A DNA stretch of 41,964 nucleotides, taken from contig MU053911.1 of NCBI GenBank assembly GCA_013239625.1, positions 190,030-231,993 on the forward strand. The letters are read 5' to 3'. This DNA comes from Lama guanicoe. Lineage: Eukaryota. The notes beneath the pieces were generated by a model that saw only the letters and a list, made by a program, of their open reading frames with translations, had not been told where the DNA came from and searched no databases. The position numbers and the translations under genes were made by a program. How positions within the stretch are numbered: position 1 is the first letter of the stretch; the number at the start of each line of letters is the position of its first letter. Below, piece by piece: positions 22,801 to 34,800 of the stretch.

Positions 22801-25800
22801 TGCGAGTATGTTCAGTTTCATTCTGCTCTCTACTTCCAGCTGAGATAGAAAGTTGCTTGCAGTTGGCCAAAGGAGAAAGGCCCTGGTGAATGAATGTGAC
22901 AGTGACAAGGGGAGTGAACACACGGTTAATTCCTCGGTTACCAGTGCTCTCCATCTGTTGGGAAGATCAGGCACATTTATTGTGTCTCCTCGGTAGTAGA
23001 GTAGAGCCCGTTAGTTGTATTGGGTAGTTCAGAGATTATGCTGCGGCCTCGACTCCTGTAAGTGATAGACACGCTGCCCTGGGGCTTCTGGTGTGACACC
23101 AGGAGGCAGACAGCAGAGACCTGACGGAAGGAGACAGATAGCACTGCTAAAGCCACCGAAGTCCAGAGGGGACTGCATATCCGAGGCTTCTTCCCTTGGA
23201 GAGCAATTGTCGTGGCTTCAAACTGCAGAGGGAAATGATTTCAGTAAAATATTTCAGCCAAATAACTAAAATTACAAACAAGAAAGCAGTAGTAGTATGC
23301 CCTGAAAGAGGATGAAGTCAGTATGGCAAGAGGCTGTATTATGAATCTAAAATACCCAGTTTTCGGCATCTAGTTATGGGTCATGCAAAGAAACAGTAAA
23401 ATGTGATGTGTAACAGGGAAAAAGGCACATAGCAGAAACTGTGCATGAGCATGCAAGGTTTTGGACTTAAAGAACAACTGAAAAACAGTTATTATAAATA
23501 CGTTCAAAGAACTAAATGTAAACATTATTAAGAAGGAAGCGAAGGTATGATGACAGTGTTTCACCAAGTAGGGAGTATACACCACTTAGAAATATGTCAC
23601 TTAGAAAGGACCATGTGGAAATCCAGGAGTTGAAAGTACAGTAACTGAAAGTTTAGCAACCAGTGGAGAGTTCAGTACGTTTACACCGTCAGAAGGAAGA
23701 ATCAGCACCTCAGAGTGCAGGGCACAGCGAGGATGGCAGAGGTCAGACGGTGTGGTTCTGAATAATGGCAGAGATGGGAGCCAGACGTCACACACAAGAT
23801 GAGTAGTATATAAACACTGCACATGCATGCACTGTCTTCTCTCAGTTTCTCTTAAGGACGAGAAGTTATGTAAATAAATAATTAAAAAAGCAATTGTGAT
23901 AAGCGAATTTATGCTTACACATTACAAATATAAAAATAGGGTAAGAAAAGAAGTTATAAGGAGAACTATATATGTAGAATATGAAGGTAACATTTCTAAA
24001 TCTACCTAGAATTTACTCTGTGTGGTATAAATCTGTAGCAGATTCTAAAATTGACTGTGGTGATTGTTACGTAGTTCTTTGAATATATTGTAAGCATTTT
24101 TAAAGCTGGAAACCAACAATTTAATAAGACTTGAAAATCTGACCTTTTTTACATATACATACATACATATTTTTTCAGATTTTCATCCGTTGTTACAAGA
24201 AATTCAATATACTTCCCTGTGCTACAGTCGGTCCCTGTTGTCTGTTTTATCCATAGTAGTGTGTATCTGTTGATCCCAAACTCCTAATTTTATCCCTCCC
24301 CTGTGCTTCCCCCTGTGGTACCCATAGTTTGTTTTCTATGTTTGACATTTCATTAGAACTCTTCTTGTGTAATGAAATAATGCTGATTAAAGGAGCATTG
24401 CACACACAGAACCTCACACAACAAGTCAGTATTTACCTTGCAAAGTGTTTTGAAATTGTTTGTTTCTGTAGAGACCGATACAGAGCGCTTCCCAGGTGCT
24501 GTCGGAAAAGGTCTACGAAAGGGTGAAGTCAAGACGCAGTCCAAGAGTCATCTTGGTAAGAACAAAGACACTGCAAGTATCTTTCTGGTTTGTTTATCTT
24601 CTCTAGAGTTTCTTAAAGTCTGAGTCTTCAATGGTTACAGCACCTGTGTGGTGGTATTACACGGTACACTGTCGTCCTAAATTCCCTGCTGTGATCAGTG
24701 GAGCTCCAGCAGTTACCATCAATGGGAGATTAACTACAGGGCGTACGTTTCAGGACTCCTTCATTTAAAACATGAGCCTCAGACATTCAGTGCCGTGGTG
24801 AGGTTGGAATGTGCTTGACGGAAGCATGTCAGATGCGGTTCTAATCACTGTGTTTTCGGGGTAGAGGGATAGCTGCTTTGTATTTGCACAGACAGAAAGG
24901 CTAGCTTATGAATGAGACTGAAAGAGGGGTTTAGCAGACGGTTCCTTCACTAATTACGAGCTCCCTCTGCACAATTAAAGTATCGGGCACGTTGCCAGTA
25001 GCGCAGGGGAAGTAGACGTCCTCAGTCTTGTCATGTGGTTCACACGCTCCCGCCCCTTGTCCGACGTAACAGTCCGACACACTTCGTCTTGATCTTTGGT
25101 GTGAAGTGAGAGGAGGCAGAGAGCTTACCAGAAGAACGGGGGAAAGGGACAGTCAGAAGGAAAACAGCTGTCGTCCAGCGCACACGGCGGTGCCCGCAGA
25201 GCAGCGCCGCTAGCTTCTCACCGCCCAGAAGGAGACTCAGTGCGGCAGGCCCTGCGGGAGCCTCGTCACCACGTCGCAGTCAGGCAGCAGCCAGCCCCCG
25301 AGGGGAGGGCGCCCTGCGTGCTGCTTTCCTGCAGGGCGTCCTCTCAGATGCCCGAATTCACCCCCCAAACAGGAGACAGGCAAAGAAGCAGTGCAGTGCA
25401 GACATGTCCTAGGGAGTCCAGGAGAGCAGGCTGGAAAGTAACTTAGGCGGTGGGGGTGGGGTGTCGTGAAGGAGGGTGACTGTGATTCTTTCTAGATTAG
25501 CACGTTTCTTTTTTTTTTTCTCGTCCTTAATTCTGTCTGCTGTGAAATGCTCTTCTTCATGCTTCCTTGCTGATAGAAGCATCTTTGTGTGCTTATTGCA
25601 AAGAGGCCTTTCATCTCATGGTTTCTTAGAGAACTAGTGGCGTTCTCTAGCTGAGTTTTATGACTCACAGACACTGCCTTAGTCCTGGATTATCATAGTG
25701 TTAGATACATTTCTCTTTGATGCAAGAAATTCTGTAGTTACGAAGAATTGATCTTGAAAGCTAGAATTTGAAAGTAGCTGAACTCTCAGATACTCACTTT

Positions 25801-31800: not shown

Positions 31801-34800
31801 ATTATGAGGCATCAGTTATGGACCAGTGTGTCATTACCTGGATCCGTGGCCTTGGTCACCTCACTACACATCTCTGAGCCTCAATGCAATGAAGCGTGTA
31901 TGATGTCTTACTGGCTCTTTCTGTTTTAAAGCCTTTTGATTTTGCAGGTCAGACATTACATTAGAACTCTTCTTGTGTAATGAAATAATGCTGATTAAAG
32001 GAGCATTGCACACACAGAACCTCACACAACAAGTCAGTATTTACCTTGCAAAGTGTTTTGAAATTGTTTGTTTCTGTAGAGACCGATACAGAGCGCTTCC
32101 CAGGTGCTGTCGGAAAAGGTCTACGAAAGGGTGAAGTCAAGACGCAGTCCAAGAGTCATCTTGGTAAGAACAAAGACACTGCAAGTATCTTTCTGGTTTG
32201 TTTATCTTCTCTAGAGTTTCTTAAAGTCTGAGTCTTCAATGGTTACAGCACCTGTGTGGTGGTATTACACGGTACACTGTCGTCCTAAATTCCCTGCTGT
32301 GATCAGTGGAGCTCCAGCAGTTACCATCAATGGGAGATTAACTACAGGGCGTACGTTTCAGGACTCCTTCATTTAAAACATGAGCCTCAGACATTCAGTG
32401 CCGTGGTGAGGTTGGAATGTGCTTGACGGAAGCATGTCAGATGCGGTTCTAATCACTGTGTTTTCGGGGTAGAGGGATAGCTGCTTTGTATTTGCACAGA
32501 CAGAAAGGCTAGCTTATGAATGAGACTGAAAGAGGGGTTTAGCAGACGGTTCCTTCACTAATTACGAGCTCCCTCTGCACAATTAAAGTATCGGGCACGT
32601 TGCCAGTAGCGCAGGGGAAGTAGACGTCCTCAGTCTTGTCATGTGGTTCACACGCTCCCGCCCCTTGTCCGACGTAACAGTCCGACACACTTCGTCTTGA
32701 TCTTTGGTGTGAAGTGAGAGGAGGCAGAGAGCTTACCAGAAGAACGGGGGAAAGGGACAGTCAGAAGGAAAACAGCTGTCGTCCAGCGCACACGGCGGTG
32801 CCCGCAGAGCAGCGCCGCTAGCTTCTCACCGCCCAGAAGGAGACTCAGTGCGGCAGGCCCTGCGGGAGCCTCGTCACCACGTCGCAGTCAGGCAGCAGCC
32901 AGCCCCCGAGGGGAGGGCGCCCTGCGTGCTGCTTTCCTGCAGGGCGTCCTCTCAGATGCCCGAATTCACCCCCCAAACAGGAGACAGGCAAAGAAGCAGT
33001 GCAGTGCAGACATGTCCTAGGGAGTCCAGGAGAGCAGGCTGGAAAGTAACTTAGGCGGTGGGGGTGGGGTGTCGTGAAGGAGGGTGACTGTGATTCTTTC
33101 TAGATTAGCACGTTTCTTTTTTTTTTTCTCGTCCTTAATTCTGTCTGCTGTGAAATGCTCTTCTTCATGCTTCCTTGCTGATAGAAGCATCTTTGTGTGC
33201 TTATTGCAAAGAGGCCTTCCATTCTCCCCTGTACCAGGTGGAGGGGAACCAGAGCCTCGGTCATACCGCTGATACCTCTCATTGTGCGTCGCCGTAGCTC
33301 ATGTCACTCTCACAAAATATTGTGACGCACTTACTGAAACTTGTTCTTTCCAACTGTAAGTTTTGTGGATCGTTTTGGTGACGATACCCAAGCTGATTCC
33401 CACCTCTTTTTGAATTTTGACGTGTATTTTGGCTCCAGAGTTCATAGTGTAATCTTTTACACCTAGTCCTGGTCTCAGCAGTTACTGGAAAGTAAGAGCC
33501 GCCTAATAGTGCTGGGTTCGGGGTAGGTTTCCAGCCTCTGGTACATGCCCTTCTGTAATCAACATTCTTTACTTATCCCTTTTCAATTTGAATTTTTCTT
33601 TAATAACTTTTGTGTATTTTTCCTCTGATTTGACGTAGTTATTTGTTTCTAAATCCATTGAAATGTTCAAATCACATCATAAAAACTCAAACGGAGTGGG
33701 ATGCAGTCCCAGCGGTGGTGCTACTGCTGATCACATGAACTCCCCAAGACCCTTAACATCGTATGAGAGACAGCATTGTGTATAAGAGCACTGGTTATGG
33801 AATTAATGGGGCATCCACTTGTGCTTAGTTTTTAGTTGTCCTGATACACGTTCTCAATCACATCACAGAACACCTGCAGCTTCAGGGTCATGAGGCTGAC
33901 ATGACGGCTAGCAGCCCTTCCGGTGCTAAGGCTTCTGATTCTGCAGTCCAGATATGCATCATTGTAACTCTTCATCTGCAGTAACGAGTACTAATTAAGC
34001 CAGCACTACGCACACACACAGACAGACAGACGTGTGCACTGATGTCACCTCAGAGAGTGTTTTAAAACCTGTTTTATGTCCTTAGAGACTTTCATAGAAC
34101 ATGTGACAGATACTGTTGGAAGAGGGGCAATGGTTGATGAAATCAAGACACAATTTAAGAACCACCCTGGTAATAACAGGAATTTTTCAAGTTTAACATT
34201 TATGCTCTGTGCTGTCTCTGGGATCTAGTTAACTGCATCGTTAGTGACAGCAGTAACTATATGTTAGTGTTAATGATCAGAAATCTTCATGAATTTCCTC
34301 TTCTATTTAGTTAAACTCTAGTATTTACTATCAATGGAAATTTAGCTAGATATTACTTAGTTCTTAAACTCATCCATTTGGAAAGTAATCCACCAAATCT
34401 AATGCAAAATGACTCTGGAATATTCTTGATTTATATTTCCAGCTGCCATTCTATTCACTGTCTTTGCTGGCTTAGAAAGGAATGTTGCTTTGAATTTGCA
34501 AAAGCGAAAAGGCTAGGTGGTGTGCAGTACAAGAGGGCTGCTTCACTGCTTACCAGTTACCTCTGCATAATTAGGTTGGCAGGTAATGGTGTCTGTATTA
34601 GAGTGGCGTTTTCTATCCGAGCTGCACAATTCACAGTTACCGCATTAGTCCTAATAGTAGCAGTGTAGATACATTTCTGTTAGATGCAGGAAGTACTGTA
34701 GTTATGAACTTTCTGCAGAATTGATGTTGAAAGCTAGAATTTGAAAGTAACTGAATGTTCAGATACAAGCACCCACATGTGTGTTTTCACTGAAATTTAA

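What the first reader, a model, noticed from the sequence alone, without database searches (positions are those of the whole stretch)
24351..33218. Apparently perfect 1260-bp exon-containing duplicate 7608 bp apart amid much older paralogy
Seen: 24351-25610 equals 31959-33218 with a constant offset, identical ORFs and the same 11-T homopolymer, so the protein would carry two identical 28-aa repeats. Neighbouring paralogous introns are clearly diverged. Identity stops exactly at structural breaks: an L1 fragment on the left and a jump in homology on the right. Inference: recent non-allelic gene conversion or a very recent duplication. An assembly consensus artefact is also possible.
Basis: partly seen in the sequence, partly recalled or inferred. 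Interest (0 to 1): 0.72.

Follow-up and report, generated by a model that had tools for sequence, protein, structure and literature searches.

The report
Copy-corrected twin exons in camelid CCDC7
Two copies of a 1.26-kb exon-bearing piece of the gene CCDC7 are letter-for-letter identical in a South American camelid, although the second copy seems to be shared with camels and so millions of years old; most likely one copy was recently overwritten by the other, a known process that seems to recur in this gene in whales and sea lions.

Summary
Confirmed: 24351-25610 equals 31959-33218 at 1260 of 1260 bases. The next longest exact repeat in the window is 61 bp. The gene is CCDC7 of a South American camelid, and the pair lies in its array of six 84-bp exons (A, B1, C, D, B2, E).

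The copy looks old. A Bactrian camel model has the same A,B,C,D,B order, and whales have a B-type plus E-type block at the B1 position, whose intron remnant still follows B1 here (81% to its paralogue). A copy as old as the camel-llama split should differ at roughly 40-70 sites, so zero differences point to non-allelic gene conversion within about 0.85 My.

Relatives show the same pattern at protein level. Another exon pair differs by 0-1 residues in 8 of 13 cetaceans and by 5-9 in the other 5, with homogenisation in both directions. A sea lion has two identical B-type units where the horse has 9 differences.

Open: no reads or camel DNA could be examined, only 1 of 7 camelid protein records shows both copies, and a GC-bias test was negative. 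Known mechanism; I found no description at this locus, and the scan had not noted it on other DNA.

The parts
24351..25610 (+). Copy 1 of the exact 1260-bp pair; inferred remnant of an old duplicated B+E block and inferred acceptor of conversion
   Evidence: position matches the whale second unit and the Bactrian second unit
31959..33218 (+). Copy 2 of the exact pair, inside an intact unit; inferred donor
   Evidence: homology to unit C continues upstream from 31658; the peptide is closest to the whale sixth unit, 6-8 differences
24472..24555 (+). Exon B1, 84 bp, phase 1, open frame, intact splice signals
   Evidence: included in Bactrian model P0070
32080..32163 (+). Exon B2, identical to B1
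22459..22542 (+). Repeat exon A of CCDC7
   Evidence: 0 of 27 residues differ from Bactrian
26851..26934 (+). Repeat exon C (B-type, 64 of 84 bases shared with B)
28221..28304 (+). Repeat exon D
34086..34169 (+). Repeat exon E: open frame, donor GTAATA, absent from the camel models
24150..24350 (-). Truncated L1-like 3' piece abutting copy 1 (L1 label recalled from its sequence, no repeat library run); its last bases overlap the start of B-unit homology
   Evidence: 155 of 188 aligned bases match another copy at about 40464-40668
25636..26425 (+). Remnant of the intron that followed the lost second E-type exon, interrupted by a repeat piece at about 26081-26292
   Evidence: 340 of 417 and 108 of 134 aligned bases match 34602-35332
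26425..26440 (+). Old duplication junction: end of E-downstream homology (35332) joined to start of B/C-upstream homology (31658)

Best explanation
Step 1 (shown): the pair lies in the 84-bp repeat-exon array of CCDC7. Step 2 (inferred): in an early even-toed ungulate a block of about 3.7 kb carrying exons B and E was copied in between exons A and C. Step 3 (inferred): before camels and llamas split, the camelid copy lost its left flank (now joined to an L1 piece) and its E-type exon, leaving about 1.27 kb of homology to the B2 unit 7.6 kb downstream. A single deletion with templated insertion from B2 in the camelid ancestor would look the same. Step 4 (inferred): double-strand-break repair using the nearby paralogue as template has since overwritten this remnant, most likely from B2 to B1, over its whole length and within about the last 0.85 My. 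Identity stops at the structural breaks because homology stops there. Step 5 (predicted only): B1 has full splice signals and keeps the frame, so transcripts can carry the same 28-residue unit twice; the likely effect is one more unit in a repeat tail whose unit number already varies between mammals.
For: Exact identity 1260 of 1260. Camelus bactrianus model XP_074214089.1 has units A,B,C,D,B with two identical B peptides. Twelve of the 13 cetacean species compared show seven units A,B',E',C,D,B,E, while horse and sea lion show five. The E' intron remnant follows B1 in the window at 81% identity to the E intron. With 7e-9 mutations per generation and 5-year generations (PMC7331169), a copy 12-20 My old should differ at 42-71 sites; zero differences bound divergence at 0.24%, about 0.85 My. 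Split dates in print: 11 My fossil, 25 My mitochondrial (PMC1939714). Concerted pattern in relatives: E'/E differ by 0-1 of 27 residues in 8 of 13 cetaceans and by 5-9 in the other 5, while the control pairs B'/B differ by 4-6 and C/B by 10-11 in 12 of 12. The homogenised type is E' in gray whale and delphinids and E in Mesoplodon. The two B-type units differ by 0 residues in sea lion and 9 in horse.
Against: No camel DNA and no reads were seen, so within-species identity with between-species divergence is not shown for this tract. The B peptide is also identical between the window and Bactrian camel (0 of 27; chance 0.25 at the 18 of 363 average), so proteins date the copy but cannot show camelid homogenisation. 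Only 1 of 7 camelid protein records shows both copies; the wild-camel model lacks B1 and the dromedary model has one B and no C or D. These are predicted models. No extra GC bias in the tract against unit C. At the generic human conversion rate of about 1e-6 (PMC4467073) about 9 differences would be expected at equilibrium in a simple independent-site model, so a higher local rate or one recent full-length event is needed. Camel exon C is closer to whale B' (6-8 differences) than to whale C (11-13), so the unit-by-unit orthology is not clean.
Confidence: 0.7

Rival explanations
1. Old copy, converted only partly or longer ago: the real copies differ at a few sites and the assembly wrote one consensus into both places.
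For: The generic conversion rate predicts about 9 differences. Several camelid models stop, split or lose units around this array, which would fit assembly trouble. No reads were checked.
Against: The window has no N and both copies have clean, explicable junctions. From general knowledge, consensus steps can hide a few differences but not 40-70, so recent homogenisation is needed in this reading too.
Confidence: 0.16
2. Recent duplication: B1 is a new templated copy of the B2 region made in the last million years, and the Bactrian copy is an independent event or a modelling error.
For: Perfect identity and short imperfect matches at the left junction fit template switching. The wild-camel model lacks B1.
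Against: It needs two events at the same place, or an error that happens to reproduce the window's order. The copy also sits exactly where whales have a B-type exon, directly before the E' intron remnant.
Confidence: 0.07
3. Old copy with no conversion at all: the copies are 3-6% diverged in the animal and the assembly replaced one by the other.
For: Cannot be excluded without reads.
Against: From general knowledge, copies this divergent are separated by short and long reads alike. Both Bactrian B peptides are identical as well, and homogenisation recurs in this array in independently assembled cetaceans and a sea lion.
Confidence: 0.04
4. False duplication: copy 1 does not exist and was used to fill a gap.
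For: Exact identity; 2 of the 3 camel models that cross the array have a single B.
Against: An independent record from another genus has the copy in the same position, and the position matches the whale order.
Confidence: 0.03

Closest known systems
Non-allelic conversion between duplicated exons 26a and 26b of salamander Nav1.4 (PMC8476164; abstract and the section on gene conversion read)
   Same: Two paralogous exon copies inside one gene are homogenised, and assembly error had to be considered as the rival.
   Different: There the tracts are 56-77 bp, read support was shown and the function is known. Here the tract is 1260 bp, 93% intronic, fills the whole homology, has no read support yet and no known function.
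Interlocus gene conversion in human segmental duplications (PMC4467073; passages read)
   Same: Same inferred mechanism, unidirectional copying between paralogous loci.
   Different: The pair here is only 1.26 kb, inside one gene and 7.6 kb apart. The quoted rate of about 1e-6 per site per generation is too low for zero differences at equilibrium in a simple model.
Intragenic segmental duplications of NEB and TTN (PMC9109913 search listing only; PMC9142044 listing and one passage)
   Same: Highly identical exon-bearing blocks inside one gene, prone to copy-number change.
   Different: Those are large multi-exon blocks (eight exons three times in NEB). Here one exon is involved, the copies are separated by diverged units, and copy-number change is only hinted at by the dromedary model.
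CCDC7 / C10orf68 / Biot2 of other mammals (PF15368)
   Same: Same gene, exon order and 28-residue repeat tail.
   Different: Unit number and identity vary by lineage: five in horse and sea lion, seven in whales, about nine in human, six exons in this window.

Membership tests
CCDC7 orthologue | Exons match named CCDC7 proteins in order | tested here: met
   Ten exons match the Bactrian protein with 18 differences in 363 residues; collinear tblastn hits; all named hits are CCDC7
CCDC7 orthologue | PF15368 (BioT2) domain | not tested
   Precomputed for most hit proteins. The eight window exons scanned, five repeat units among them, hit no Pfam family; the start of the gene lies outside the window
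Concerted evolution by non-allelic gene conversion | Paralogues are older than their identity implies | tested here: met
   Same extra exon in the Bactrian model and at the whale second position; 42-71 differences expected, 0 seen. Rests on one camel model
Concerted evolution by non-allelic gene conversion | Copies closer within a species than to orthologues between species, at DNA level, for this tract | not testable with these tools
   No genome held, no runs listed, no camel DNA found
Concerted evolution by non-allelic gene conversion | Same within-species versus between-species pattern in this array in relatives | tested here: met
   E'/E in 8 of 13 cetaceans with lineage-specific residues shared by both copies; sea lion B-type pair. 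Protein level only, different exon pairs
Concerted evolution by non-allelic gene conversion | Converted tract bordered by diverged but still homologous sequence | tested here: inconclusive
   Only about 7 bases with one mismatch remain on the left, and they may be L1-derived; homology ends at the right edge
Concerted evolution by non-allelic gene conversion | Polymorphisms shared between copies in the population | not testable with these tools
   Needs phased long reads of several animals
Concerted evolution by non-allelic gene conversion | Extra AT-to-GC bias in the tract (frequent, not obligatory) | tested here: not met
   Intronic polarised changes: B 32 W>S and 11 S>W, unconverted C 41 and 11; direct B versus C 85 to 71, p=0.30
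Recent lineage-specific duplication | Copy absent from relatives | tested here: not met
   Present in the Bactrian model; absent from the wild-camel model, where the DNA could not be checked
Assembly false duplication | Copy absent from independent assemblies | tested here: not met
Assembly false duplication | Single-copy depth and no reads across the junctions | not testable with these tools
   No run was listed

The most novel reading that the evidence does not exclude
The CCDC7 repeat array is a long-lived conversion hot spot across mammals. In camelids an isolated 1.26-kb remnant has been kept fully identical to its donor in both tribes for 11-25 My, at a rate several times the generic one, and the same pair drives a 7.6-kb deletion allele lacking exons C and D, as the dromedary model reads. 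Different exon pairs are homogenised in different lineages and in both directions, giving replicated natural experiments on tract length, direction and the effect of homology ends.
Probability: 0.3. Interest if true: 0.6.

Novelty: new member of a known kind. Interest (0 to 1): 0.4.

Why it matters
The mechanism is textbook, so this is not a new kind of system. It matters as a compact, replicated case. One gene shows apparent homogenisation of exon copies in camelids, at least three cetacean lineages and a sea lion, which would allow rate, direction and tract length to be measured from existing long-read genomes. It also warns that perfect identity does not date a duplication, and that camelid CCDC7 models are unreliable across this array.

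Tried and rejected
No whole genome was held. The one run search, which I restricted to PacBio libraries, listed no run and no RNA holder; that is no evidence either way, and it left the read test undone. A search for short database ORFs over the exon frame found no candidate. A metagenome scan gave 596 pattern matches and none confirmed. Pfam gave 0 families for 8 of 8 exon peptides. The GC-bias test was negative. The tree of 30 E-type peptides had 0 starred branches of 15, so I rely on difference counts, not on the tree. Earlier scan notes: nothing by place or by sequence; the word search met no finding with CCDC7. Literature: (CCDC7 with gene conversion, Biot2, or exon/repeat/duplication/evolution) and searches listed no paper on this array. 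I saw listings only for most, the term also matches CCDC70-79, and the one hit I opened was CCDC70. Subscription papers and supplements were not seen. Rejected: selection as the cause of identity, since 1176 of the 1260 bases are intronic. Rejected: simple tandem duplication, since 6.3 kb of diverged units lie between the copies.

Full report
Observation. The two stretches are identical at 1260 of 1260 bases and the match is maximal. The next longest exact repeat in the window is 61 bp. A scan for small open exons found six 84-bp phase-1 exons, which I call A (22459), B1 (24472), C (26851), D (28221), B2 (32080) and E (34086). B1 and B2 are identical. The other pairs share 41-64 of 84 bases, and whole units share 55-69% of aligned sites.

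Gene and organism. A 42-residue upstream exon found 69 proteins among 72 candidates; all those with a name are CCDC7. Three upstream exons match an alpaca record at 100%, 100% and 43 of 44 residues. Ten exons differ from the Bactrian camel protein at 18 of 363 residues. The window is therefore CCDC7 of a South American camelid. A search listing describes the gene (Biot2) as highly expressed in testis and cancer cells (PMC7838428, start of abstract only). The repeat has no Pfam match.

Anatomy. Copy 2 lies in an intact unit, whose homology to unit C begins at 31658, 300 bases before the exact tract. Copy 1 has no such flank. On its left is a truncated antisense L1-like piece (label recalled). 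Seven of the 10 bases before the tract still match copy 2, but they also align to another copy of the L1 piece, so their origin is ambiguous. On its right, 25636-26425 matches the intron after exon E at about 81% (340 of 417 and 108 of 134 bases). At 26425-26440 that homology ends and homology to 31658 onward begins. This reads as the junction of an old duplication of the block 31658-35332, which carried exons B and E.

Age of the copy. The Camelus bactrianus model XP_074214089.1 has units A,B,C,D,B with two identical B peptides. Twelve of 13 cetacean species show seven units, A,B',E',C,D,B,E; the Mesoplodon model lacks the sixth. The hippopotamus model has A,B',E',C,D. Horse and sea lion have five units without the B'E' block. 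So B1 stands where whales have B', just before the remnant of the E' intron. I infer that copy 1 is what is left of that block after two losses, or after one deletion with templated insertion, before camels and llamas split.

Limits of that evidence. Of 7 camelid protein records, 1 shows both copies. The wild-camel model reads A,C,D,B and the dromedary model A,B. The older Bactrian gene is split in two records, and both alpaca models stop at or before exon A. These are predicted models and I could not see their DNA or RNA support. Camel exon C is closer to whale B' (6-8 differences) than to whale C (11-13), so older exchanges or a different orthology are possible.

Why identity needs explaining. 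I used 7e-9 mutations per site per generation and 5-year generations (PMC7331169, passages). A copy 12-20 My old should then differ at 42-71 of 1260 sites. Published split dates are 11 My from fossils and 25 My from mitochondria (PMC1939714, abstract). Zero differences bound divergence at 0.24% (95%), about 170,000 generations or 0.85 My. That is younger than the 2-3 My Lama-Vicugna split. Selection cannot explain it, since 1176 of the 1260 bases are intronic. At the generic human rate of about 1e-6 per site per generation (PMC4467073, passages), a simple model gives about 9 differences. So either the local rate is higher, or one recent event covered the whole tract, or the assembly hides a few differences.

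The same process in relatives. I compared one model per species over 27 residues. E' and E differ by 0-1 residues in 8 of 13 cetaceans (gray whale, Mesoplodon, six delphinids) and by 5-9 in the other 5. The control pairs B'/B and C/B differ by 4-6 and 10-11 in 12 of 12. The shared form is lineage-specific: both gray whale copies carry a glycine seen in baleen E', both Delphinus copies an alanine, and both Pseudorca, Globicephala and orca copies a glutamine. Mesoplodon has the E form in both places. On the recalled whale tree this is at least three independent events in two directions. In sea lion the two B-type units are identical; in horse they differ at 9 residues. One unnamed whale-like record (P0017) and the partial or alternative isoforms were left out of the count. 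The tree of these peptides was unresolved (0 of 15 inner branches starred), so it adds nothing. Collapse in those assemblies was not excluded.

Results against or neutral. The B peptide is also identical between the window and the camel (chance 0.25), so proteins cannot show homogenisation within camelids.

Mechanism. Shown: exact identity, intact exon and splice signals in both copies, the junction anatomy, and a second B in one camel model. Inferred: old origin, trimming by deletion, recent conversion by repair on the nearby paralogue, and direction B2 to B1. The direction rests on the peptide being closest to the whale sixth unit (6-8 differences against 8 for B'), which is weak. Predicted only: inclusion of B1 in mRNA. 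Confidence 0.7; another 0.16 goes to the same history with a few real differences hidden by the assembly.

Comparison and novelty. It works like conversion between the duplicated exons of salamander Nav1.4 (PMC8476164, abstract and one section) and like conversion in human segmental duplications. Membership is supported by age and by the pattern in relatives; the DNA-level cross-species test is untested and GC bias was not found. Five literature searches listed no paper on this array, judged mostly from listings; supplements and subscription papers were not seen. Verdict: very likely a real feature, a new member of a known kind, interest 0.4.

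Noticed in passing
window 18693-18821: This CCDC7 exon holds a 21-bp (7-residue) coding tandem repeat: 2.4 copies here, two more units in the Camelus proteins and one fewer in whales.
   Followed up: partly
window 4713-4933 and 5577-5795: A second local duplicate, 221 bp at 96.8% identity, 862-864 bp apart inside an intronic repeat; the first copy ends at a 21-bp tandem repeat.
   Followed up: no
window 34086-34169: Exon E has an open frame but the donor GTAATA, and all four camel records that reach this point skip it; it may be a fading exon.
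   Followed up: partly
P0074 (Camelus dromedarius model): Reads A, B, then the next exon, with no C or D. That is what an assembly collapse or a real deletion between B1 and B2 would give; exon skipping in the model is also possible.
   Followed up: no
P0075 (Macaca nemestrina model): Three identical tandem 28-residue units where Macaca mulatta and Theropithecus models have one.
   Followed up: no
window 32625-33575 (first 594 bases also in copy 1): A segment of about 0.9 kb present after B2 but not after C; its part inside the tract is 56% GC with 30 CpG. Origin not identified.
   Followed up: no
P0002 and P0073 (Vicugna pacos models): Both alpaca models end early: one splices from the exon before A into an L1-like piece, the other from A into intron sequence resembling 22840-22890. 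The alpaca annotation of this gene looks truncated.
   Followed up: partly
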